Source of the DNA: Escherichia coli
GTDB lineage: Bacteria; Pseudomonadota; Gammaproteobacteria; Enterobacterales; Enterobacteriaceae
Length of the DNA stretch: 64,000 nt
Assembly (NCBI RefSeq): GCF_003018255.1
Contig: NZ_CP027440.1
Direction: 5' to 3' (one strand)
The notes under the pieces were generated by a model, which made no database searches, was not told the origin of the DNA, and saw nothing but the letters and a program-made list of their open reading frames with translations. The stretch's first letter is position 1; every line of letters begins with the position of its first letter. This document shows positions 664 through 48,947 of this stretch, in pieces. The translations under genes were made by a program, and so were the position numbers.

Positions 664-3543
664 CTTTTCACTCATCAGGGGCATTGTTTGCTGCAACGCG
701 CTGACGTTCTCCCACACTTTCCAGCCTTCAGGATGCACATATTCGGCTTTCCCGTTCTGGCTGCCGGAAATCTGCGACAGAATAGCCATGCCTTGCGGCT
801 CGACCACCGCCTGATGGAAGAAATCAGCAAGTTTTTGCGGCGTCAGCAGTTTTATCTGGGCCACGATTTTATCACGCGAATCGAAGCGCATATTGCCGCG
901 ATCGAAATCTTTACTTAACTTCGATGCTTCTTCGCCGAGCGTTTGCGGTGCCTGCAGCATCTGGGTTATTACCGCCTGCTGGATTTGCGCAAACTCCTCT
1001 GGCTTCATCGCCCGCAATTTTGCCTCTGCGGTTGGGAAAAACGCCTTGTAACGCTCCCACAAGAATGAAGGCTGTTTATCATTGCTTTGCAAAAGGAAGC
1101 CCATGCCCCACTGACGCCCCACGCTCATTGGAAACGCAAACACGGCATAGCCCAACTGTTCTTCGGTACGCAACTGATTGTAGAACCACGGCTGTACGAT
1201 CTGCCCCAACAGAGAGCTATAGGCTGAGCTGGTGTATTCATCGTAGCCAGTCGGTACAAATACCGCTGCCAGTGCGGAGTCGGTGCTGTTACCGGCTTTT
1301 TCAAAGATGACAGATTGTTTTTTATCGACCACGACATCTTTGTTACGGCACCACTCCGAACCATCAGCGCCCAACTGTTTTTGCACATCGCGTGCCAGCG
1401 TTGTTGCCTGGGCTTCGGTCATGTTGCCAATAACCATAAACTCTGGTCGAGCCCCTGATTTTAAGGCGTCGCGATAGGCCAGCACCTCTTTCAAAGTGAT
1501 TGAAGGCAAAATTTTGCGCCGTTCATCTCGCGAGAAGTACGGCACTTGCGAGAGCATCTGCGCGGGCATAATCGCCTGCTCGAACGCTTTGCCCTTTTCT
1601 GCGGAATCCATCATCTGGTTATACCAGGACTTCGCCTGCTCAAGCTGATCTTCCGTAGCGGTATAGCTAAAGTACCCCTCGAGCAATGCCTGGAACAGCT
1701 GCGGCAGACGCTGGGTGTAACCATTAGCATTAACCATAAGGCCGTTGTTAGCGTTGGTGGAAAAACTAATGCCACCAACCGACGCCTGGTTGCTTAACTG
1801 ATCAAGCGCTAGCCCGGCAAGATAATCATTGAGCGCAAACATCACCTGATTGCGGGCGCTGTCCATGGCTTTCGGATTACGCAAAATCAGGCTGACATCA
1901 GCTTTGGGTTCGCTGGAAAAATAACGGCTTGGCGCATAGACCACACGCAGATTCGACTCATCAACAATAAGCTCTGGATGGTCATATTTCTTCTCTGACT
2001 TAATCAGCGAGAAATCGTCAGGAATATAGGGGTTAAGCTCTGGCAAAGAGAGCGCAATGTCGGCGGCTTTTTTCTGCCAGTCAGCGAAAGTTTGTGCGCT
2101 AATTTTATCGACCTGATACGGCGCATCGACAAAGTAAGCCGTTTTGTTGTGCGGCTCTTTCGGGCTGATATACCAGATACGCGCATTCTGCGGCGTCATC
2201 ATCGCCAGGCGTTCTTTTACTGCTTTAGCGTCGTACCGATCGGCAATATTGACTGCATCCAGCGTATGCTCAACAGGAACGCGAATCATGGTATCTGCCA
2301 GCCATTCGACGTAATCCATATCACGGGTGATTGACGGATAACGAAAGTCGATATCCAGCACATTCGCCAGTTCATCGAAGTATTGTTTATCAATCCCTTT
2401 TTCGCGTAACAGATTGAGGTAGCTAAAAATGGCCGCCACAACCTGATCGCGATTCGCCAGACCTTTATCGGTTAAAGACGCAGAGATCGCTAATACGCCG
2501 CTGTTGCCGTTGACGATAGGATCGGAATTGGCGCTAATGCCCTCAACTAATCCCTGCTTTTGCAGCCAGTCAGAAAGTGTACCTGGGCTGCGATTACCGA
2601 TCAGATAGGTAATCAATTCATCCGTTTTACTACGGAACTTCGCTGAATTGTTATCGATGCGAAACTCAACGCGCAGAACTTTACGCGGCAGCGCCGGGAC
2701 GTAATGAATGATAATACCTTTTTGCGCGTCGGTGACTACCGGCACGGTGATTTCCGGTTTTTTGCTCTCTTTGTTCGGCACGCGACCAAAGGTGTCCGCC
2801 GCCATTTTTGCCAACTCCGGCAGCGGTTTATTGCTGTAAATAACCGCCTTCATCAGATTGGCAGAGTAATATTTCTCGTGAAAATCTTTCAGCGCCTGCT
2901 GCACCGGATTTCCGGGTTTGTCGCTTAAAGTTTCGAGGTTACCACCAGAAAACTTTGAACCGGGGTGTGCCGGGTTAATGGTTTCTGCGCTGACCTGTGC
3001 CATGCGCATCCCGTCACGCGTACGCGCCATGGTTAATTCGGCATTCACTGCATTACGTTCACGTTCGGCGTATTTCTTGTCGAGCAAGGGTTCTGCAATA
3101 GCGTCCGCCAGGCGGTCTACCGCACCGGGCAAGGCGTCGTTCTCAACTTCCAGATAGAAAGCCGTGCGATACGGTGCCGTGCTGGCATTGTGACTGCCGC
3201 CGTGCATTTTGAGATATTCGGCCAGACTGTCAGCCTGCGGGTACTTTTTCGACCCCATCAGACTCATATGTTCAAGGTAATGTGCCAGCCCCTGGTACGC
3301 CTCGGGATCTTCCAGCGACCCAACGGGCACTACCAGCGCCGAGAGCGATTTAACCGCCTGCGGATCAGAAACCAGCAAGACCACCATACCGTTATCCAGA
3401 CGTATAGCCTGATACTGGCGGTTATCTTTATCACTTTTACGGATGGTTTCCTGAATCGGCTGCCATCCCGTTTCTGCCTGACTTAAGGGTGCCCAAAGGG
3501 CAACAAACAACAATAATGCTTTGAACCAGGTGCTGCGGGGCAT
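655..3543 (-). CDS. ptrA: Protease III (pitrilysin), periplasmic M16 zinc metalloprotease
   Basis: 962-aa ORF with an N-terminal signal peptide and the inverted zinc-binding motif HYLEH. Confidence 0.93.
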   Translation of the reverse strand: MPRSTWFKALLLFVALWAPLSQAETGWQPIQETIRKSDKDNRQYQAIRLDNGMVVLLVSDPQAVKSLSALVVPVGSLEDPEAYQGLAHYLEHMSLMGSKKYPQADSLAEYLKMHGGSHNASTAPYRTAFYLEVENDALPGAVDRLADAIAEPLLDKKYAERERNAVNAELTMARTRDGMRMAQVSAETINPAHPGSKFSGGNLETLSDKPGNPVQQALKDFHEKYYSANLMKAVIYSNKPLPELAKMAADTFGRVPNKESKKPEITVPVVTDAQKGIIIHYVPALPRKVLRVEFRIDNNSAKFRSKTDELITYLIGNRSPGTLSDWLQKQGLVEGISANSDPIVNGNSGVLAISASLTDKGLANRDQVVAAIFSYLNLLREKGIDKQYFDELANVLDIDFRYPSITRDMDYVEWLADTMIRVPVEHTLDAVNIADRYDAKAVKERLAMMTPQNARIWYISPKEPHNKTAYFVDAPYQVDKISAQTFADWQKKAADIALSLPELNPYIPDDFSLIKSEKKYDHPELIVDESNLRVVYAPSRYFSSEPKADVSLILRNPKAMDSARNQVMFALNDYLAGLALDQLSNQASVGGISFSTNANNGLMVNANGYTQRLPQLFQALLEGYFSYTATEDQLEQAKSWYNQMMDSAEKGKAFEQAIMPAQMLSQVPYFSRDERRKILPSITLKEVLAYRDALKSGARPEFMVIGNMTEAQATTLARDVQKQLGADGSEWCRNKDVVVDKKQSVIFEKAGNSTDSALAAVFVPTGYDEYTSSAYSSLLGQIVQPWFYNQLRTEEQLGYAVFAFPMSVGRQWGMGFLLQSNDKQPSFLWERYKAFFPTAEAKLRAMKPEEFAQIQQAVITQMLQAPQTLGEEASKLSKDFDRGNMRFDSRDKIVAQIKLLTPQKLADFFHQAVVEPQGMAILSQISGSQNGKAEYVHPEGWKVWENVSALQQTMPLMSEKNE

Positions 3544-6700: not shown

Positions 6701-7087
6701 TGAAGAAAGCTGGAACAGTTTTCGCTTGTCGCTATCGTCAGTCAGATAATGCCGCAACAGGGTAAAGTCTTCGCGCTCCAACAGTTGCGGCAGCAGAGTC
6801 ATCAGTTTCCAGCTCATGCTCTGTTTGTTAAAGGCGCTCTCTTTGGGGATTTCCGGTAACACCCGGACGAACATATCCCAGATAAAGCTCGCTGGCAGCG
6901 GAAAATCAATGTTTGCCGCAATACCAAACTTTTGCGACAGGGTCATTTGCAGCCACTGCGCCATACCGGTACTTTGCACCAGAATCATTTCTGGTTCGAA
7001 AGGATCGTCCAGCCGTTCGCGTTCGACGATAAACTCCATCAACGCTTCCAGCACGTCCAGACGATTGGAATGGTAGACCCTTAACAT
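3719..7087 (-). CDS. recC: RecBCD subunit RecC
   Basis: 1122-aa ORF of RecC length, in the conserved recB-ptrA-recC arrangement. Confidence 0.93.
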   Translation of the reverse strand: MLRVYHSNRLDVLEALMEFIVERERLDDPFEPEMILVQSTGMAQWLQMTLSQKFGIAANIDFPLPASFIWDMFVRVLPEIPKESAFNKQSMSWKLMTLLPQLLEREDFTLLRHYLTDDSDKRKLFQLSSKAADLFDQYLVYRPDWLAQWEIGHLVEGLGEAQAWQAPLWKALVEYTHELGQPRWHRANLYQRFIETLESATTCPPGLPSRVFICGISALPPVYLQALQALGKHIEIHLLFTNPCRYYWGDIKDPAYLAKLLTRQRRHSFEDRELPLFRDSENAGQLFNSDGEQDVGNPLLASWGKLGRDYIYLLSDLESSQELDAFVDVTPDNLLHNIQSDILELENRAVAGVNIEEFSRSDNKRPLDPLDSSITFHVCHSPQREVEVLHDRLLAMLEEDPTLTPRDIIVMVADIDSYSPFIQAVFGSAPADRYLPYAISDRRARQSHPVLEAFISLLSLPDSRFVSEDVLALLDVPVLAARFDITEEGLRYLRQWVNESGIRWGIDDDNVRELELPATGQHTWRFGLTRMLLGYAMESAQGEWQSVLPYDESSGLIAELVGHLASLLMQLNIWRRGLAQERPLEEWLPVCRDMLNAFFLPDAETEAAMTLIEQQWQAIIAEGLGAQYGDAVPLSLLRDELAQRLDQERISQRFLAGPVNICTLMPMRSIPFKVVCLLGMNDGVYPRQLAPLGFDLMSQKPKRGDRSRRDDDRYLFLEALISAQQKLYISYIGRSIQDNSERFPSVLVQELIDYIGQSHYLPGDEALNCDESEARVKAHLTCLHTRMPFDPQNYQPGERQSYAREWLPAASQAGKAHSEFVQPLPFTLPETVPLETLQRFWAHPVRAFFQMRLQVNFRTEDSEIPDTEPFILEGLSRYQINQQLLNALVEQDDADRLFRRFRAAGDLPYGAFGEIFWETQCQEMQQLADRVIARRQPGQSMEIDLACNGVQITGWLPQVQPDGLLRWRPSLLSVAQGMQLWLEHLVYCASGGNGESRLFLRKDGEWRFPPLAAEQALHYLSQLIEGYREGMSAPLLVLPESGGAWLKTCYDAQNDAMLDDDSTLQKARTKFLQAYEGNMMVRGEGDDIWYQRLWRQLTPETMEAIVEQSQRFLLPLFRFNQS

Positions 7088-22296: not shown

Positions 22297-23559
22297 TTAA
22301 AGCAATTCCAGCGCCAGTAATTCTTCAATGGTCTGGCGACGGCGAATCAACCGCGCCTGACCATTATCAAACAGAACTTCTGGTAACAGCGGACGGCTGT
22401 TGTAGTTGGATGACATTGATGCGCCATATGCCCCTGTATCATGCAGTACCAGATAATCACCTGCCTTCACTTCCGGCAAGGCGCGGGTTTCGACATTTCC
22501 CCCTTCCTGCTGGGTAAAGACATCGCCCGATTCACATAACGGCCCGGCGACGACGGTTTCCACCGTTGGTGCGTGTTCCAGAGAACGACCATCAGCTGCC
22601 AGGGCACTGATATGGTGGTAACTACCGTACATTGCCGGGCGCATCAGATCGTTGAACCCGGCATCAACCAGCACAAAGTGGCGGCTACCCATTTGTTTGA
22701 CGCTCCGCACTTGAGTAATTAATACGCCAGACTGCGCTACCAGAAAGCGACCCGGTTCAATTTCCAGTTTCACAGGGTGGCCCAAATGGCGGGCGATTTG
22801 CTGACGCGCGGCATTCCACAGACCATAATAATGCTCGGTATCAACCGCCTCTTCACCCTGTTGATAAGGAACAGAAAGCCCACCGCCCGCAGAAATAGCC
22901 TGTAAATCCTGACCGAATTCGAGGACCTGACGCACCATAGCACCACATACCTGTTCCAGATGGGCATAATCGACGCCAGAACCAATGTGCATGTGAATGC
23001 CGACCAGCTGTAGATGATGACGTTGTATCACGTCCAGTGCGGCGGGCAGATCGGTGTACCAGATACCGTGCTTGCTGTTTTCGCCACCGGTATTGGTTTT
23101 TTGGCTATGCCCGTGACCAAACCCCGGATTAACACGCAGCCATACCCGATGCCCTGGCGAAACCTGACCCAGTTGGTCGAGCATATCAACAGAACCCGCA
23201 TTCACCGGAATTTGCAATTCACTGACGCGTTCAAGCGTCGCCTGATCGATAACATCTGCCGTAAAAACAATATCATCAGGGTGCGTTTGCGGATTGTAAC
23301 CCGCCGCCAGTGCACGCTCTATTTCGCCTAACGAGACGGAATCCACTTTCACGCCCTGCTCACGCATTAAGCGCAAAATATGAATATTGGAACAGGCTTT
23401 CTGTGCGAAGCGCACCACATCAAACTGTTTCAGCGCTGCAATCTGCCGACGAATAATTTGCGCATCGTAGACCCACACCGGGCAGCCAAATTCTGCGGGC
23501 AAACGCAGCAGATTTTCGGCGGTGAGATCGGTATCAGTGCTGAACAGTGAATGTGGCAT
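22297..23559 (-). CDS. lysA: Diaminopimelate decarboxylase
   Basis: 420-aa PLP-dependent decarboxylase, divergent from lysR. Confidence 0.93.
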   Translation of the reverse strand: MPHSLFSTDTDLTAENLLRLPAEFGCPVWVYDAQIIRRQIAALKQFDVVRFAQKACSNIHILRLMREQGVKVDSVSLGEIERALAAGYNPQTHPDDIVFTADVIDQATLERVSELQIPVNAGSVDMLDQLGQVSPGHRVWLRVNPGFGHGHSQKTNTGGENSKHGIWYTDLPAALDVIQRHHLQLVGIHMHIGSGVDYAHLEQVCGAMVRQVLEFGQDLQAISAGGGLSVPYQQGEEAVDTEHYYGLWNAARQQIARHLGHPVKLEIEPGRFLVAQSGVLITQVRSVKQMGSRHFVLVDAGFNDLMRPAMYGSYHHISALAADGRSLEHAPTVETVVAGPLCESGDVFTQQEGGNVETRALPEVKAGDYLVLHDTGAYGASMSSNYNSRPLLPEVLFDNGQARLIRRRQTIEELLALELL

Positions 23560-37074: not shown

Positions 37075-38853
37075 TTATGTGTTTAACAACTCATATTTCT
37101 TAATCTTGCGATAGAGCGTAGCAATGCCGATGCCCAGTTCATCAGCAACTTCCTTCTTGCTGTTATGACGTGAAAGCGCCTCGCGGATCATTTGCTTTTC
37201 CATCTCCTCCAGCGCCGTGCCGCCCGCATCATCGAGTGCCAGGTGCGCCTCACTGACCTCTGTTACATCACTTTGCTCCGTTGTGCCATTATTCAGCAGA
37301 TTTGGCGGCAATAGCGTGCTGTCGATAACTTCACCTGAAGGAACCACGTTAACCAGATATTCCATCAAATTGCTTAACTCGCGCAGGTTTCCGGGCCAAC
37401 GATGCTTACGCAATATTTCGACGACATCGGGAGCAATGCCCGGATAAACCGATCCCAGACGACGGGTATGCAGATGTAAAAAGTAATGCACCAGTAGTTC
37501 AATATCTTCCTGACGTTCACGCAGCGGTGGCAGAGTTATCGGGATAACATTAAGTCGGTAGAAGAGATCTTCGCGGAATTTACCTTCGGAAATGAACTGG
37601 GCCAAATTCTGGTTAGTTGCAGAAATGATGCGAATGTCGACTTGTATTGGGCTACTGGCACCAATCGGCAGAATTTCACGTGCCTCAATAGCGCGCAGTA
37701 ATTTAGCCTGCAACATTAATGGCATATCACCTATTTCATCGAGAAACAGCGTGCCCGTATTCGCCGCCTGAATCAACCCTGTTTTACCGTTGGCAGAAGC
37801 GCCAGTAAATGCGCCTTTAACATAACCGAACAGTTCGCTCTCCAGAAGCTGCTCCGGAATCGCGGCACAGTTGATAGCAATAAAAGGTTTATTCCGTCTT
37901 CCGCTCAACTTATGGATTGCACGGGCGACGACTTCTTTACCCGTGCCGCTTTCGCCAACCACCATAACGCTGGATGGGCTGGGTGCAATACGGCTAATGA
38001 GTCGTTTTAATTGCCGCATAACACGGCACTCGCCAACCAATTGTTCAATATGCGGTTCATCAGGTGCATTTGCTACAGAAAAACTGGTATGCGATTGGTG
38101 AAACGCCATTAAAAATAATTGTCGGCCCTGAATGTTATGCAATTGACCAATGATTAATTCACTTTTATCGTCCCACGAAACAATATGCTGCATATGTCCA
38201 TGGGTAAAATTACTCTCAAATGTTAATGGTCTGAAACGAACAGGTTTCCCAATAATATTATTTTGCACAACACCGAGTGTTTTTAAGGCAGTCTGATTAA
38301 CAAACTGAACCCGATTTTCGTCATCAACAACTAAAACGCCCTGATCCATATTATCGATCATGGTCGCGAATATTTTACTGATGTTATCTCCTGGCCCCTG
38401 ATCCTCCAGAAGTTTCGAAACAAAAATGGTGGATATATGGCGAACGTAATCAGAAAATTCGCGTAAATTATCACTGATATGTTCTTGTTGCTCGTGGGTA
38501 ACGGCAATCAAACTTATCACCCCAACACAACGATCCTGTAAAATGACAGGCGTACCCAGAAATGCTTTTTCGCGGCAATTTTCTTTACTATCGCAACCTT
38601 CACAAAGGGGATCGAAGCGAGACTGTGTCACAACTTTTTCAGTTTTCGTTTCCAGGACGTGGCGGAGCAGGCGTGAGTTGCCGCTCAACTGGCGACCAAG
38701 AAACTTCCCATACGCGCCCGTTCCGGCGACGCGACACAAGTTTTCATCAACGATCTCAACCTCAAGCTGCAAAACGCTGGCAAGCATTCTGGCAAAACGC
38801 TGAATTGTCGGTTGAATTTGCATCAATACTGACTGCGTAGTAGCAAGCTCCAT
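37075..38853 (-). CDS. ygeV: Sigma-54-dependent transcriptional activator (bacterial enhancer-binding protein)
   Basis: 592 aa; AAA+ Walker A GESGTGKE, the sigma-54 contact motif GAFTGA, C-terminal HTH, N-terminal sensory domain. Confidence 0.92.
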   Translation of the reverse strand: MELATTQSVLMQIQPTIQRFARMLASVLQLEVEIVDENLCRVAGTGAYGKFLGRQLSGNSRLLRHVLETKTEKVVTQSRFDPLCEGCDSKENCREKAFLGTPVILQDRCVGVISLIAVTHEQQEHISDNLREFSDYVRHISTIFVSKLLEDQGPGDNISKIFATMIDNMDQGVLVVDDENRVQFVNQTALKTLGVVQNNIIGKPVRFRPLTFESNFTHGHMQHIVSWDDKSELIIGQLHNIQGRQLFLMAFHQSHTSFSVANAPDEPHIEQLVGECRVMRQLKRLISRIAPSPSSVMVVGESGTGKEVVARAIHKLSGRRNKPFIAINCAAIPEQLLESELFGYVKGAFTGASANGKTGLIQAANTGTLFLDEIGDMPLMLQAKLLRAIEAREILPIGASSPIQVDIRIISATNQNLAQFISEGKFREDLFYRLNVIPITLPPLRERQEDIELLVHYFLHLHTRRLGSVYPGIAPDVVEILRKHRWPGNLRELSNLMEYLVNVVPSGEVIDSTLLPPNLLNNGTTEQSDVTEVSEAHLALDDAGGTALEEMEKQMIREALSRHNSKKEVADELGIGIATLYRKIKKYELLNT

Positions 38854-39222
38854 AGCTTTACCTTCCAGACTTACTTAAAAGTCGATCATTGAAGACGTTG
38901 ATGGTTCATAGATCATGATGATATTAACTCAGGCGAAATTGGCTTTGATAAAAACATAAGATTTTTATCACTTTCTAATGAAATTATGGAAGAGATATCA
39001 CATTTCTATATCAATATGAGAATTACGGCGGTGAGTTTATCAAACTGAAGAGAGATCGCCTGTCCCTTTATCTTATTTCTGATACTTAGCAGCAAATAAA
39101 TAACGCGATAAAAAAAGCCAAACGTTTTCGTATTTTACAAACAACCAGAAGCTGGCATCAATTTGTGATCAACCCCACACATTATCCGTCAAATTAGTCT
39201 TTTGCAGCCCCGTGGATAATTC

Positions 39223-39237
39223 TGGCACACTTATTGT
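39223..39237 (+). promoter_or_regulatory. Candidate sigma-54 promoter upstream of ygeW (weak -12 element)
   Basis: TGGCAC-ACTTA-TTGT has the correct -24 element and spacing but GT instead of GC at -12; about 92 bp upstream of ygeW. Confidence 0.3.
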
Positions 39238-39328
39238 TAGTCCCAGGTATAGCTGTGAAAACACCAATCACGTTGGCAAGTCACAGTGAAATAAACCACT
39301 TTGCCTGTCATTCCACTACCGGGACTTT

Positions 39329-40519
39329 ATGATGAAAACTGTTAATGAGCTGATTAAGGATATCAATTCGCTGACCTCTCACCTTCACGAGAAAGATTTT
39401 TTGTTAACGTGGGAACAGACGCCAGATGAACTGAAACAAGTACTGGACGTTGCCGCAGCATTAAAAGCACTGCGTGCTGAAAACATCTCAACCAAAGTCT
39501 TTAATAGTGGATTAGGTATTTCCGTATTCCGCGACAACTCCACCCGTACCCGCTTCTCTTATGCTTCCGCGCTTAACCTGCTCGGCCTTGCACAGCAAGA
39601 TCTCGACGAAGGCAAATCACAAATCGCTCACGGCGAAACCGTGCGTGAAACCGCCAATATGATCTCCTTCTGCGCCGACGCTATTGGTATTCGCGACGAT
39701 ATGTATCTGGGCGCAGGCAACGCCTATATGCGTGAAGTTGGCGCTGCACTTGATGACGGTTACAAGCAGGGTGTGCTGCCGCAACGTCCGGCTTTAGTGA
39801 ACCTGCAATGCGATATTGACCACCCGACTCAGTCAATGGCTGACCTGGCATGGTTACGTGAACACTTTGGTTCACTGGAAAACCTGAAAGGTAAAAAAAT
39901 CGCCATGACCTGGGCCTACTCCCCAAGCTATGGCAAACCGCTCTCTGTACCACAAGGCATCATCGGTCTGATGACTCGCTTCGGTATGGATGTCACCCTG
40001 GCCCATCCGGAAGGCTACGACCTGATCCCGGATGTCGTTGAAGTCGCTAAAAACAATGCTAAAGCCTCCGGCGGTAGCTTCCGTCAGGTCACCAGCATGG
40101 AAGAAGCCTTCAAAGACGCAGACATCGTTTATCCGAAGTCATGGGCACCTTACAAAGTGATGGAAGAGCGTACTGAATTGCTGCGTGCGAACGATCACGA
40201 AGGCTTAAAAGCACTGGAAAAACAGTGTCTGGCACAGAACGCGCAACACAAAGACTGGCATTGTACTGAAGAGATGATGGAACTGACCCGTGATGGCGAA
40301 GCCCTGTACATGCACTGCCTGCCAGCTGATATCAGCGGCGTATCCTGCAAAGAAGGTGAAGTGACTGAAGGCGTATTCGAAAAATACCGTATCGCTACCT
40401 ACAAAGAAGCCAGCTGGAAGCCTTATATCATCGCCGCGATGATCCTGTCCCGTAAATACGCCAAACCAGGTGCACTGCTCGAGCAACTGCTGAAAGAAGC
40501 GCAAGAACGCGTGAAATAA
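39329..40519 (+). CDS. ygeW: Carbamoyltransferase (OTC/ATC superfamily, non-canonical substrate)
   Basis: 396 aa with the carbamoyl-phosphate-binding STRTR motif (FRDNSTRTRFSYA). Confidence 0.9.
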   Translation: MMKTVNELIKDINSLTSHLHEKDFLLTWEQTPDELKQVLDVAAALKALRAENISTKVFNSGLGISVFRDNSTRTRFSYASALNLLGLAQQDLDEGKSQIAHGETVRETANMISFCADAIGIRDDMYLGAGNAYMREVGAALDDGYKQGVLPQRPALVNLQCDIDHPTQSMADLAWLREHFGSLENLKGKKIAMTWAYSPSYGKPLSVPQGIIGLMTRFGMDVTLAHPEGYDLIPDVVEVAKNNAKASGGSFRQVTSMEEAFKDADIVYPKSWAPYKVMEERTELLRANDHEGLKALEKQCLAQNAQHKDWHCTEEMMELTRDGEALYMHCLPADISGVSCKEGEVTEGVFEKYRIATYKEASWKPYIIAAMILSRKYAKPGALLEQLLKEAQERVK

Positions 40520-40576: not shown

Positions 40577-41773
40577 ATGTCCGTTTTCTCATTGAAGATT
40601 GATATCGCCGATAACAAATTTTTCAACGGCGAAACATCACCGCTTTTTTCGCAAAGCCAGGCAAAACTGGCACGCCAGTTCCACCAGAAAATTGCTGGTT
40701 ATCACCCAACACCGCTTTGTGCGCTGGACGATCTCGCAAACCTGTTTGGTGTAAAGAAAATTCTCGTCAAAGACGAATCAAAACGATTCGGTCTGAACGC
40801 CTTCAAAATGCTTGGCGGTGCGTACGCCATCGCTCAATTATTGTGTGAAAAATATCATCTTGATATCGAAACGCTGTCATTTGAGCACCTGAAAAATGCC
40901 ATCGGCGAAAAAATGACTTTCGCGACTACCACCGACGGCAACCACGGGCGCGGTGTGGCATGGGCAGCACAGCAACTCGGACAGAATGCGGTGATTTACA
41001 TGCCGAAAGGTTCTGCTCAGGAACGCGTTGACGCCATTCTAAACCTCGGTGCCGAGTGCATCGTCACGGATATGAACTATGACGATACCGTTCGCCTGAC
41101 CATGCAACACGCGCAGCAGCACGGCTGGGAAGTGGTACAGGACACGGCATGGGAAGGTTACACCAAAATCCCAACCTGGATCATGCAAGGCTACGCAACA
41201 CTGGCGGATGAAGCCGTCGAGCAAATGCGTGAAATGGGCGTCACCCCGACACACGTTCTGCTGCAAGCCGGTGTCGGTGCAATGGCCGGTGGTGTGCTGG
41301 GTTATCTGGTCGACGTCTATAGCCCGCAAAATCTGCACAGCATTATTGTTGAACCTGACAAAGCTGACTGTATTTATCGCTCCGGCGTCAAAGGCGACAT
41401 CGTCAACGTTGGCGGTGATATGGCCACCATCATGGCGGGCCTGGCCTGCGGCGAACCTAACCCACTGGGCTGGGAAATCCTACGTAACTGCGCCACCCAA
41501 TTCATCTCCTGCCAGGACAGCGTTGCCGCATTAGGTATGCGCGTGCTGGGTAATCCGTATGGCAACGACCCGCGCATCATCTCCGGTGAATCCGGCGCTG
41601 TCGGTTTGGGCGTTCTCGCAGCGGTTCATTATCACCCGCAACGTCAAAGCCTGATGGAAAAACTGGCGCTGAACAAAGATGCCGTGGTGCTGGTTATCAG
41701 CACTGAAGGCGACACCGACGTGAAGCACTACCGCGAAGTTGTCTGGGAAGGCAAACACGCTGTAGCACCTTAA
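40577..41773 (+). CDS. ygeX: PLP-dependent diaminopropionate ammonia-lyase
   Basis: 398-aa ORF of the Trp-synthase-beta-like PLP enzyme fold, assigned by recognition and position. Confidence 0.88.
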   Translation: MSVFSLKIDIADNKFFNGETSPLFSQSQAKLARQFHQKIAGYHPTPLCALDDLANLFGVKKILVKDESKRFGLNAFKMLGGAYAIAQLLCEKYHLDIETLSFEHLKNAIGEKMTFATTTDGNHGRGVAWAAQQLGQNAVIYMPKGSAQERVDAILNLGAECIVTDMNYDDTVRLTMQHAQQHGWEVVQDTAWEGYTKIPTWIMQGYATLADEAVEQMREMGVTPTHVLLQAGVGAMAGGVLGYLVDVYSPQNLHSIIVEPDKADCIYRSGVKGDIVNVGGDMATIMAGLACGEPNPLGWEILRNCATQFISCQDSVAALGMRVLGNPYGNDPRIISGESGAVGLGVLAAVHYHPQRQSLMEKLALNKDAVVLVISTEGDTDVKHYREVVWEGKHAVAP

Positions 41774-47173: not shown

Positions 47174-47944
47174 CTAATTCACAAATCTGCGCGCGATTGC
47201 AGGATGTTCTTGTATATCGCCCAGCCAGATTGCCTCTACGTCGTGTTGTTGCAGCGGTTGAAGGAGCTCGCTTTGCGCAATCGCATTCTCACATTGAGAA
47301 AAACGGTTAATGAACCAGACTCGCCGACAACCTTGCGGTACGTTTTTAAACGCCCCCTGAGGGTGGCGAACCAGCGCAACGAGATCGCTCAGTTGCAAGG
47401 TTGCATCAGGTGTTAACCCGGTAATATCAGCAAACTGCGACCAGCGATGGACATTTTCTGTGCTCACTTTCGCACCCAAAATATGTCCTCCCATCACAGC
47501 AATCACGCAGCAACTGCTTTTAGGTATGCAAGGTTCGTGCTCATCAGGCGCTTTTAACGGCATTCCACGCGAGCCATCTGCCTCAATGAGAATTACGTCA
47601 CACTCTGATCGTTGTACCAGTGCATCAATCGCTTCTGGCGTAAATCCCTGCACTTTTCCCTGGTTCGCTTTCCAGCTGTGAAAACAAAATGAAATGGGGG
47701 ATATAAAAGACGCATGAGGAAGCATGGCGGGATCACGACAGAAAACCACGGGCCAGTGAGATGTTGGCATAAACATATGTGTCGTCGTAGTGATTAATAC
47801 ACGCCTGCCGCTCGCCTGGAACAGTTCTGCCAGCCAAAAAAGCAAGCTGGTTTTCCCCCCAGCACCAACAACAGAAATCACAGTGGGACGTTTCTGCGCG
47901 CCTAAATCAATGAATAATGCCGATGGGTCAATTATACTTTTCAC
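47174..47944 (-). CDS. yqeC: YqeC-family accessory protein with P-loop-like motif
   Basis: 256 aa; motif VVGAGGKTS near the N-terminus; directly downstream of yqeB. Confidence 0.85.
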   Translation of the reverse strand: MKSIIDPSALFIDLGAQKRPTVISVVGAGGKTSLLFWLAELFQASGRRVLITTTTHMFMPTSHWPVVFCRDPAMLPHASFISPISFCFHSWKANQGKVQGFTPEAIDALVQRSECDVILIEADGSRGMPLKAPDEHEPCIPKSSCCVIAVMGGHILGAKVSTENVHRWSQFADITGLTPDATLQLSDLVALVRHPQGAFKNVPQGCRRVWFINRFSQCENAIAQSELLQPLQQHDVEAIWLGDIQEHPAIARRFVN

Positions 47945-48626: not shown

Positions 48627-48780
48627 AAAACGTAGTTAAACGATTGCGTTCAAATATTTAATCCCTCCAGCACTCTTTATCATAATGATAAGGAATCACT
48701 GATTTTGAGAAAAGAGAAAAAGTGATAAATGGGCTGGCAATAATAATTTTCAGGAGTGATTTTAATTCTCATTTGGCACC

Positions 48781-48796
48781 TGTGAGTTCATTCACA
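48781..48796 (+). promoter_or_regulatory. Candidate CRP binding site upstream of ygfK
   Basis: TGTGAgttcatTCACA, both CRP half-sites with 6-bp spacer, about 150 bp upstream of ygfK. Confidence 0.45.
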
Positions 48797-48850
48797 AAAA
48801 GCCATTAAGTTTCGAGCCGCCTCACATTTTTTTATATTTCCCGCCAAACC

Positions 48851-48866
48851 TGGCAAGAGTGGTGCG
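48851..48866 (+). promoter_or_regulatory. Candidate sigma-54 promoter upstream of ygfK
   Basis: TGGCAA-GAGTG-GTGCG with GG-N10-GC spacing, about 83 bp upstream of ygfK. Confidence 0.35.
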
Positions 48867-48947
48867 ATTGTTGCTCTATCCCCCTAAACCACCGGATTTC
48901 TCAACACCGGTCACTCAATGATATCTGTATAAGCTAAGGAGAGGGTT

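What the first reader, a model, noticed from the sequence alone, without database searches (positions are those of the whole stretch)
39223..39237. Degenerate sigma-54 element (TGGCAC-N5-TTGT) upstream of ygeW
The -24 box and spacing are perfect, but the -12 GC is GT. It sits in a 475-bp AT-rich divergent region shared with ygeV, which suggests a weak or activator-dependent RpoN promoter for the ygeW operon.
Basis: seen in the sequence. Interest (0 to 1): 0.4.

Follow-up and report, generated by a model that had tools for sequence, protein, structure and literature searches.

The report
Known sigma-54 promoter of ygeW operon

Summary
The window is E. coli chromosome. TGGCAC-N5-TTGT sits at 39223-39237 (+), 92 nt before the ygeW ATG, in the 475-bp, 63% A+T spacer shared with the divergent activator gene ygeV.

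The same 17-mer (CTGGCACACTTATTGTT) is row OS30 of the sigma-54 ChIP-seq table of Bonocora et al. 2015 (weak occupancy, FAT 3). The spacer also lies in an earlier ChIP-chip region and gives an in vitro RpoN-holoenzyme SELEX peak. ygeW was predicted as a sigma-54 regulon member in 2011.

Added here:
- The site is conserved at the same place in 40 proteobacterial ygeW loci, and none has C at -12 (T 22, A 13, G 5).
- TTGT is shared with the confirmed pspA and pspG promoters.
- A conserved CRP box (39164-39179) lies 59-61 bp upstream of TGG.
- A conserved palindrome, TATCA-N3-TGATA (39009-39021, second copy 39038-39050), recurs upstream of xdhA, ygfK and ygfT/uacT. It is a candidate YgeV enhancer site.

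Most likely mechanism: a low-affinity sigma-54 promoter fired by YgeV from about -205/-234, with CRP-cAMP as co-factor. No mapped start site or rpoN/ygeV dependence of ygeW mRNA turned up in the papers searched. Verdict: already known, low interest.

The parts
39222..39238 (+). Sigma-54 (RpoN) promoter 17-mer CTGGCACACTTATTGTT. The -24 GG is at 39224-39225. The -12 position is GT at 39236-39237 instead of GC.
   Evidence: Sequence. Identical to motif OS30 of Bonocora 2015. Leave-one-out PSSM 13.7 bits, rank 6 of 127,968. Conserved in 40 loci. GG and TTGTT invariant in 7 E. coli haplotypes.
39249..39249 (+). Predicted transcription start, about 12 nt after the -12 T, giving an 80-nt leader. Inferred, not mapped.
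   Evidence: Rule used by Bonocora 2015: start is 19 nt after the motif centre, distance 80 to ygeW. The leader fold is unremarkable, z = -0.02. No Rfam family matches.
39164..39179 (.). CRP-like box TGTGATCAACCCCACA (1 mismatch to TGTGA-N6-TCACA), centred about -77.5 from the predicted start.
   Evidence: Conserved in Enterobacterales. TGTGA lies 59-61 bp before TGG in 18 of 21 genera and 49 bp in 3. The ygeV<>ygeW spacer is listed among predicted CRP targets from genomic SELEX in Shimada 2011. A 'native Crp-binding site' in this spacer is mentioned in PMC12507026.
39009..39021 (.). Candidate enhancer (UAS) site 1, TATCAATATGAGA. It has 1 mismatch to the palindrome TATCA-N3-TGATA. Its centre is 208 bp before TGG (about -234).
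   Evidence: Strongest conserved block of the spacer. The palindrome is perfect in 14 other genera. The same motif lies upstream of xdhA, ygfK and ygfT/uacT. Binding by YgeV is inferred, not shown.
39038..39050 (.). Candidate enhancer site 2, TATCAAACTGAAG (2 mismatches), 29 bp downstream of site 1 (about -205).
   Evidence: TTATCA...TG is conserved across genera, and the palindrome is perfect in Cedecea colo.
37075..38853 (-). ygeV, the divergent sigma-54 enhancer-binding protein (592 aa).
   Evidence: Pfam: PAS 162-205, Sigma54_activat 272-439, AAA_lid_14, HTH_8 548-587. RefSeq annotation.
39329..40519 (+). ygeW (knotted carbamoyltransferase), first gene of the downstream same-strand run ygeW-ygeX/dpaL-ygeY-hyuA-yqeA/arcC (to about 45460).
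   Evidence: ORF list. RefSeq annotation of the identical region.

Best explanation
The element is the sigma-54 (RpoN) promoter of the ygeW operon.

Shown: RNA polymerase-sigma-54 binds the 17-mer at 39222-39238 in vivo and in vitro, weakly, as a closed complex that is silent in standard medium.

Inferred from sequence:
- YgeV, encoded divergently, binds the conserved TATCA-N3-TGATA sites at 39009-39021 and 39038-39050 (about -234 and -205). It contacts the closed complex by DNA looping and uses ATP hydrolysis to open the promoter, with a start near 39249.
- The CRP box at 39164-39179 (about -77.5) lies between enhancer and promoter at a conserved distance. CRP-cAMP most likely acts there as a bending or co-activating factor, in place of the IHF site that many weak sigma-54 promoters use.
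- The operon would then need both a YgeV signal (purine/urate related) and absence of glucose.
- The non-consensus -12 base (T, never C in 40 orthologues) keeps holoenzyme affinity low, which would make the promoter dependent on this upstream architecture.
For: Binding:
- ChIP-seq OS30 has the identical motif, + strand, FAT 3.
- The site overlaps an earlier ChIP-chip region.
- RpoN holoenzyme SELEX gives a peak in the spacer at 53-55%.
- Two higher-scoring PSSM hits inside genes (22301, 55926) are absent from both ChIP-seq peak lists, so occupancy here is not just motif strength.

Conservation:
- In 40 loci from Enterobacterales, Aeromonas, Photobacterium and Betaproteobacteria, the best PSSM hit upstream of ygeW is the orthologous TGGCA[CT]-N5-TTG[T/A/G]. 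Its centre lies 74-118 nt before the ATG, with one outlier at 237.
- The surrounding spacer is largely unalignable.
- Non-proteobacterial ygeW loci lack the site.

Activator:
- YgeV has the AAA+ sigma-54 interaction domain and an HTH_8 domain.
- A ygeV-like gene is divergent from ygeW in most of the loci that carry the site.
- ygeWXY sits in one co-expression module with xdhABC, ygfK-ssnA-ygfM-xdhD, ygfT and uacT.

Enhancer: there are 4 hits with at most 1 mismatch in 920 bp upstream of the three sigma-54 promoters, against 0.09 expected (0 of 2000 shuffles). The identical 13-mer occurs in the ygfT/uacT spacer.

CRP:
- The box and its spacing are conserved.
- CRP SELEX lists ygeV<>ygeW, ygfK and ygfT<>ygfU.
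- Glucose represses urate degradation in wild type but not in a strain with this spacer's promoter region replaced.
- No IHF consensus with at most 1 mismatch occurs in 38990-39225.
- No sigma-70-like promoter was found on the + strand between the CRP box and the leader.
- pspA and pspG show that TTGT promoters work.
Against: - No transcription start has been mapped here. None of the papers I found measures ygeW mRNA in rpoN, ygeV or crp mutants.
- The only ygeV-mutant expression effect cited is on ygfT.
- ChIP occupancy is low (FAT 3, against 11 for xdhA and 26 for ygfK).
- The iModulon link is a correlation.
- YgeV binding to TATCA-N3-TGATA is unproven.
- The helical-phase argument for the enhancer distance is only suggestive. 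Rayleigh P is about 0.01-0.04 on distinct values, and periods of 12-13 score similarly.
- The CRP-box offsets at the sister promoters (49, 50, 79 bp) were noticed post hoc, and most are 2-mismatch matches.
- CRP is known to repress some sigma-54 promoters (my own knowledge: dctA, glnAp2), so its sign here rests only on the glucose phenotype.
- One low-scoring candidate orthologue (L036, Rubrivivax, 9.5 bits) has TGC at -12.
Confidence: 0.8

Rival explanations
1. Sigma-54 holoenzyme binds here but never fires (a poised or decoy site). ygeW would in fact be transcribed from a CRP-dependent sigma-70 promoter overlapping the same DNA.
For: Bonocora et al. state that binding sites are not necessarily promoters and saw almost no sigma-54 transcription in their conditions. 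A good CRP box lies upstream. If a start lay about 6 nt upstream of the predicted sigma-54 start, the CRP boxes of the cluster would sit near classical class I positions (-61.5, -71.5, -91.5). This is my arithmetic. GATAAT occurs at 39215-39220.
Against: The consensus scan finds no sigma-70-like promoter on the + strand between the CRP box and the leader. The hexamers at the required -10 position (TTATTG, CTTATT) lack the key A2. GATAAT is conserved only in E. coli and Citrobacter, while the sigma-54 element and the CRP box are conserved much more widely. The strict invariance of GG and TTG across 40 loci, beside an activator gene, is what a used sigma-54 promoter predicts.
Confidence: 0.1
2. 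It is a genuine sigma-54 promoter, but it is activated by an enhancer-binding protein other than YgeV. YgeV would control only xdhA, ygfK and ygfT.
For: The only cited ygeV-mutant effect is on ygfT. Several Aeromonas and betaproteobacterial loci keep the promoter without an adjacent divergent ygeV-like gene within 3 kb.
Against: A divergent ygeV is present in most loci that carry the site. The same palindrome occurs upstream of all promoters of the module. Co-expression falls in one iModulon.
Confidence: 0.07
3. It is a chance match to a short pattern in an A+T-rich spacer.
For: The exact pattern is expected 0.19 times per window, and 18% of shuffles contain one.
Against: Three independent binding datasets place sigma-54 here. 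The site is conserved in 40 loci while the flanks diverge.
Confidence: 0.01

Closest known systems
The site itself: sigma-54 binding site OS30 (ygeW) of Bonocora, Smith, Lapierre and Wade 2015, PLoS Genet (PMC4591121)
   Same: Identical 17-mer, strand, downstream gene and predicted start.
   Different: Nothing differs. That paper reports binding and conservation in Citrobacter, Yokenella and Raoultella. It does not report the conserved non-C at -12, the CRP box spacing or the upstream palindrome.
pspA and pspG promoters of E. coli (PspF-dependent sigma-54 promoters)
   Same: TGGCA[CT]-N5-TTGT with T instead of C at -12. Both are EcoCyc-confirmed and bound in ChIP-seq. The pspA motif score stays high across most of the genera scored.
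   Different: They use a different activator (PspF, constitutively active and held in check by PspA), a different regulon and higher occupancy (FAT 21 and 15, against 3). From my own knowledge, pspA uses IHF. No IHF consensus was found here.
prpR<>prpBCDE (propionate catabolism) of E. coli and Salmonella
   Same: A divergent activator gene, a sigma-54 promoter for a catabolic operon, and a CRP site in the shared spacer giving catabolite repression.
   Different: prpBCDE also needs IHF, and its -12 element is canonical (GTGGCACACCCCTTGCT). CRP dependence of ygeW transcription is inferred, not measured.
xdhA (33301-33317) and ygfK (48859-48875) sigma-54 promoters in the same cluster
   Same: Same co-expression module. 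Both are bound by sigma-54 in ChIP-seq. The same TATCA-N3-TGATA motif and CRP-like boxes lie upstream.
   Different: Both have a canonical GC at -12 and higher occupancy (FAT 11 and 26). Their enhancer motifs lie closer (105-176 bp before TGG, against 179-208).
DioR sigma-54 regulon of Clostridiales (PMC6615313)
   Same: A sigma-54 activator controls ygeW-ygfK-ssnA-ygeY, dpaL, yqeB and related genes. Sigma-54 control of this pathway therefore spans phyla.
   Different: Different phylum, operon order and activator. I did not compare promoter or operator sequences.

Membership tests
Sigma-54 (-24/-12) promoter | GG at -24 within TGGCAC | tested here: met
   TGGCAC at 39223-39228. GG is invariant in 40 orthologous loci and 7 E. 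coli haplotypes.
Sigma-54 (-24/-12) promoter | Exact spacing: GG-N10-GC, i.e. TGGCAC-N5-TTGC | tested here: met
   A 5-nt spacer lies between TGGCAC and TTGT. The same spacing holds in all orthologues.
Sigma-54 (-24/-12) promoter | GC dinucleotide at -12 | tested here: not met
   The G is present and the C is replaced by T (39237). Only 10 of 135 ChIP-bound E. coli sites lack this C. Four have T, including ygeW, pspA and pspG. The feature is therefore frequent but not obligatory for bound, functional promoters.
Sigma-54 (-24/-12) promoter | Occupied by RNA polymerase-sigma-54 | tested here: met
   Established by look-up of published data, not by my own experiment: ChIP-seq OS30 FAT 3, an overlapping ChIP-chip region, and an RpoN holoenzyme SELEX peak.
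Sigma-54 (-24/-12) promoter | A cognate AAA+ enhancer-binding protein is available | tested here: met
   YgeV: Sigma54_activat E = 9e-71, HTH_8 E = 2.7e-13. The gene is divergent and adjacent.
Sigma-54 (-24/-12) promoter | Upstream enhancer sites bound by the activator | tested here: inconclusive
   A conserved palindrome, TATCA-N3-TGATA, occurs at 39009-39021 and 39038-39050 and is shared with xdhA, ygfK and ygfT/uacT. Protein binding was not tested.
Sigma-54 (-24/-12) promoter | rpoN- and activator-dependent transcript starting about 12 nt after the -12 element | not testable with these tools
   No start-site or mutant expression data for ygeW appear in the papers found.
CRP co-dependent sigma-54 promoter (prpBCDE type) | CRP site between the activator gene and the promoter, bound by CRP | tested here: met
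   TGTGATCAACCCCACA at 39164-39179, conserved with fixed spacing. ygeV<>ygeW is among the CRP SELEX targets.
CRP co-dependent sigma-54 promoter (prpBCDE type) | Catabolite repression of the operon acting through that CRP site | tested here: inconclusive
   Glucose represses urate degradation in wild type but not after the spacer's promoter region is replaced. This is pathway-level evidence, not promoter-level.
CRP co-dependent sigma-54 promoter (prpBCDE type) | IHF site assisting looping | tested here: not met
   No WATCAANNNNTTR match with at most 1 mismatch in 38990-39225 on either strand.

The most novel reading that the evidence does not exclude
The promoters of the YgeV (anaerobic purine/urate) regulon may form a distinct design class of sigma-54 promoter. 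CRP, not IHF, would be the obligatory architectural partner, placed on one helical face (TGTGA 49, 59 or 79 bp before TGG at ygeW, xdhA, ygfK, uacT and ygfT). At ygeW, selection would actively keep the -12 base away from consensus C (T, A or G in 40 of 40 orthologues) so that firing requires both YgeV bound at TATCA-N3-TGATA and CRP-cAMP. Neither the operator nor this AND-gate logic appears in the papers I could search.
Probability: 0.35. Interest if true: 0.45.

Novelty: already known. Interest (0 to 1): 0.18.

Why it matters
The ygeW-ygeX-ygeY-hyuA genes belong to the gut-bacterial anaerobic urate degradation cluster, which is now being engineered in E. coli Nissle against hyperuricaemia. 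Knowing that the native promoter is a weak sigma-54 promoter, probably gated by YgeV and CRP, would explain two observations. The operon is silent in ordinary cultures, and it is repressed by glucose. It also indicates which elements to mutate or keep when rewiring the operon. As a discovery the promoter itself adds nothing, because it has been in the literature since 2011-2015. The candidate YgeV operator and the phase-locked CRP boxes are the only parts that might be new.

Tried and rejected
- Second sigma-54-like sequence CTGGCATCAATTTGTGA at 39152: it does not reach the top 40 PSSM scores and overlaps the CRP box. Rejected.
- Sigma-54 site facing ygeV: none among the high-scoring hits in the spacer.
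- Sigma-70 promoter for ygeW: the scan gives only a - strand site (39161-39132, not conserved) and one overlapping the start codon.
- IHF site: none with at most 1 mismatch.
- Leader RNA element: Rfam finds only sub-threshold noise. The fold has z = -0.02.
- Helical phasing of the enhancer distance: the Rayleigh test is only suggestive and not specific to 10.5 bp.
- Perfect palindrome TATCATCTTGATA inside ygeX (40853-40865): it encodes conserved KYHLDI, and the DNA palindrome decays at third codon positions in other genera. It is a coding by-product.
- Reitzer and Schneider 2001 (PubMed 11528004) could not be read.
- Low-stringency ChIP-seq table: no additional peak lies inside this window.

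Full report
1. OBSERVATION

The window is E. coli chromosome. The ygeV-ygeW region matches several strains at 100% identity and is present in 5181 of 5426 complete genomes. RefSeq annotation of an identical strain gives the order xdhABC, ygeV (-), ygeW, dpaL/ygeX, ygeY, hyuA, arcC/yqeA (+).

The sequence reads ...TTC TGGCAC ACTTA TTGT TA... with TGGCAC at 39223-39228 and TTGT at 39234-39237. ygeV ends its coding strand at 38853, and the ygeW ORF starts at 39329. It is about 63% A+T, against 49% for the window.

The exact pattern occurs once in the window. With 0.19 expected and 18% of shuffles containing one, the match alone is not significant.

I built a position matrix from the other 134 sites in the tables of Bonocora et al. 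With it the 17-mer scores 13.7 bits. That is rank 6 of 127,968 positions and above 37% of genuine sites. It is a mid-to-low-range site, not a wreck.

2. ALREADY PUBLISHED

- Bonocora et al. 2015 (PMC4591121), Table 1, row OS30 reads: peak 3004190, FAT 3, motif CTGGCACACTTATTGTT, + strand, b2870 ygeW, distance 80, PSSM 9.837, no EcoCyc flag.
- Their S3 Table shows the peak inside a sigma-54 region (3003550-3004653) of an earlier ChIP-chip study.
- Their S5 Table scores the orthologous site at 9.46 in Citrobacter, 9.84 in Yokenella and 10.55 in Raoultella.
- Shimada et al. 2021 (PMC8743547) list a type-A RpoN-holoenzyme SELEX peak in the ygeV/ygeW spacer, at 53% alone and 55% with NtrC.
- Francke et al. 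2011 (PMC3162934) had already named ygeW a likely sigma-54 regulon member.
- PRECISE-1K (PMC10602906) cites sigma-54 promoters upstream of xdhABC and ygeWXY and defines a YgeV iModulon. The gene list used by a later study shows that the module also contains hyuA, ygfK, ssnA, ygfM, xdhD, ygfT and uacT.
- In Clostridiales a sigma-54 activator, DioR, is predicted to control ygeW-ygfK-ssnA-ygeY.

3. INDEPENDENT CHECKS

3a. Conservation. A scan of one genome per species with YgeW returned 80 loci.
- In 39 proteobacterial loci, plus E. coli, the best sigma-54 PSSM hit in the 600 nt upstream of ygeW is the orthologous site. These loci come from Citrobacter, Atlantibacter, Klebsiella, Edwardsiella, Pluralibacter, Trabulsiella, Kluyvera, Enterobacter, Serratia, Cedecea, Hafnia, Kosakonia, Morganella, Erwinia, Intestinirhabdus, Aeromonas, Photobacterium and several Betaproteobacteria.
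- The scores are 11.3-15.4 bits. The site centre lies 74-118 nt before the ATG, with one outlier at 237.
- Most of these loci have a divergent ygeV-like gene.
- Riflebacteria, Bacteroidota, Lentisphaerota and similar loci lack the site.
- In a MAFFT alignment of 25 spacers, the promoter (TGGCA[CT]-NN-TTATTG[TAG]) is one of very few alignable islands.
- Seven E. coli haplotypes differ at up to 5 of the 75 positions around it. GG and TTATTGTT stay fixed.

3b. The -12 base. Among the 40 sites it is T in 22, A in 13 and G in 5, and never C.
- By contrast, 125 of 135 E. coli ChIP sites have C there.
- A further weak candidate (Endozoicomonas, TTGG) fits the pattern. One weak candidate (Rubrivivax L036, 9.5 bits) has TGC.
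- The four E. coli ChIP sites with T at this position include pspA (TTGGCACGCAAATTGTA) and pspG (TTGGCATGATTCTTGTA), both EcoCyc-confirmed.
- TTGT is therefore a rare but proven functional variant. Here it looks maintained rather than decayed.

3c. Occupancy is not simply motif strength. Two higher-scoring intragenic hits (22301-22317 on the - strand and 55926-55942 on the + strand) appear in neither the high- nor the low-stringency ChIP-seq lists.

4. ANATOMY OF THE SPACER

The alignment shows three further footprints.

i. A CRP-like box, TGTGATCAACCCCACA, at 39164-39179.
- It is conserved through Enterobacterales. TGTGA starts 59-61 bp before TGG in 18 of 21 genera and 49 bp before it in the other three, one helical turn less.
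- It is absent from Photobacterium and from the betaproteobacterial locus.
- CRP genomic SELEX lists ygeV<>ygeW, ygfK and ygfT<>ygfU as predicted targets.
- A 2025 paper speaks of the native Crp site in this spacer. It shows that glucose represses urate degradation unless the region is replaced by constitutive promoters.

ii. A palindrome, TATCA-N3-TGATA.
- The E. coli copy is TATCAATATGAGA at 39009-39021. It is perfect in 14 other genera.
- Its centre lies 208-212 bp before TGG in most Enterobacterales. The distance is 188, 196, 198, 221 or 222 bp in others, and 149-180 bp in Photobacterium and the betaproteobacterial locus.
- A second, half-conserved copy lies 29 bp downstream, at 39038-39050.
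- The same motif occurs upstream of xdhA (33170 and 33191), of ygfK (48678, perfect) and, as the identical 13-mer, in the ygfT/uacT spacer (L082:5764).
- That makes 4 hits with at most 1 mismatch in 920 bp, against 0.09 expected (0 of 2000 shuffles).
- I read this as the YgeV operator. The papers I could search mention no YgeV binding motif.

iii. An FNR-like box on the ygeV side (see section 8).

Other results for the spacer:
- No IHF consensus lies between the enhancer and the promoter.
- No sigma-70-like promoter faces ygeW.
- YgeV has PAS, AAA+ sigma-54 interaction, lid and HTH_8 domains.

5. MECHANISM

Shown: sigma-54 holoenzyme occupies 39222-39238, and occupancy is low.

Inferred:
- YgeV bound at about -234 and -205 loops to the closed complex and opens it.
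- CRP-cAMP at about -77.5 supplies the bend or contact.
- The sub-consensus -12 base keeps intrinsic affinity low, so that both inputs are needed.

CRP-like boxes also sit 49, 50 or 79 bp before TGG at xdhA, uacT, ygfT and ygfK. This would put all of them on one helical face. However, most are 2-mismatch matches, and the regularity was seen post hoc. The enhancer-distance phasing test is only suggestive.

The nearest worked-out analogue is prpR<>prpBCDE, which combines sigma-54, IHF and direct CRP dependence.

6. RIVALS

- Poised, non-productive binding with a sigma-70/CRP promoter doing the work. This is possible in principle, because Bonocora et al. stress that binding does not prove a promoter. 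There is no credible -10 element, and the putative GATAAT is not conserved.
- Activation by a different enhancer-binding protein. This is unlikely given the synteny and the shared operator.
- A chance match. This is excluded by the binding data and by conservation.

7. VERDICT

- The finding is already known.
- Interest is low (0.18). The modest new material is the conserved avoidance of C at -12, the candidate YgeV operator and the fixed CRP spacing.

8. OTHER THINGS SEEN

These are listed under Noticed in passing:
- other published sigma-54 sites in the window;
- an FNR-like box near ygeV;
- a sequence-only uacT sigma-54 candidate;
- YgeV lacking a receiver domain, despite being called an orphan response regulator.

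Noticed in passing
window 39009-39021, 39038-39050, 33170-33182, 33191-33203, 48678-48690; L082:5764-5776: A palindrome, TATCA-N3-TGATA, recurs upstream of every sigma-54 promoter of the purine/urate cluster (ygeW, xdhA, ygfK, ygfT/uacT) and is conserved across genera at ygeW. It is a candidate YgeV operator that I did not find described in the searchable literature.
   Followed up: partly
window 39164-39179, 33253-33268, 48781-48796, 48811-48826; L082:5837-5852: CRP-like boxes lie 49, 50, 59 or 79 bp before the TGG of the sigma-54 promoters of ygeW, xdhA, ygfK, uacT and ygfT. The steps are about 10 bp, so all fall on one helical face. The ygfK box TGTGAGTTCATTCACA is a perfect core. The pattern was noticed post hoc, and most of the others are 2-mismatch matches.
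   Followed up: partly
window 38945-38958: On the ygeV side of the spacer, E. coli has TTGATAAAAACATA. The aligned position is a perfect FNR-type box, TTGAT-N4-ATCAA, in Serratia and Hafnia, and TTGAT-N4-ATCAG in Photobacterium. This may reflect anaerobic control of ygeV itself, degenerate in E. coli.
   Followed up: no
window 33301-33317 (+), 48859-48875 (+), 1382-1398 (-), 6710-6726 (+), 47527-47543 (-), about 63867-63883 (-): Six more published sigma-54 ChIP-seq sites fall in this window: xdhA OS29, ygfK OS31, ptrA IS33, recC IA22, yqeC IS34 and ygfT OS32. In this strain the ygfT motif reads CATGCCCATTTATTGCA rather than TATGCCCGTTTATTGCA.
   Followed up: partly
window 22301-22317 (-) and 55926-55942 (+): CTGGCGCTGGAATTGCT (3' end of lysA) and CTGGCGGAACAATTGCA (inside xdhD) score higher on the sigma-54 matrix than the ygeW site. 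Neither appears in the high- or low-stringency ChIP-seq lists.
   Followed up: partly
L082:5885-5901 (just beyond the window's right end): CTGGCACTCCACGAGCA (GG-N10-GC) lies about 70 nt before the uacT start codon, with the TATCAATATGAGA motif 116 bp upstream. It is a sequence-only candidate sigma-54 promoter for uacT, which is in the YgeV iModulon. It has no ChIP-seq peak.
   Followed up: partly
window 40853-40865: A perfect TATCATCTTGATA lies inside ygeX/dpaL. It encodes the conserved peptide KYHLDI, and the DNA palindrome is not kept in other genera. It is probably a coding by-product rather than an operator.
   Followed up: yes
window 37075-38853 (-), ygeV: Pfam finds PAS, AAA+ sigma-54 interaction, lid and HTH_8 domains but no receiver domain. 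Residues 1-160 match nothing. The 'orphan response regulator' label used when the gene was renamed isrR (PMC9426417) therefore looks inaccurate, and the N-terminal sensor is uncharacterised.
   Followed up: partly
L086 and L087 (E. coli M11957, FCI48), position equivalent to window 39228 and 39230: These are natural promoter variants, TGGCATAG instead of TGGCACAC. The 75-nt region around the promoter is unusually polymorphic in E. coli: only 1774 of 5175 genomes are at least 99% identical to this window.
   Followed up: partly
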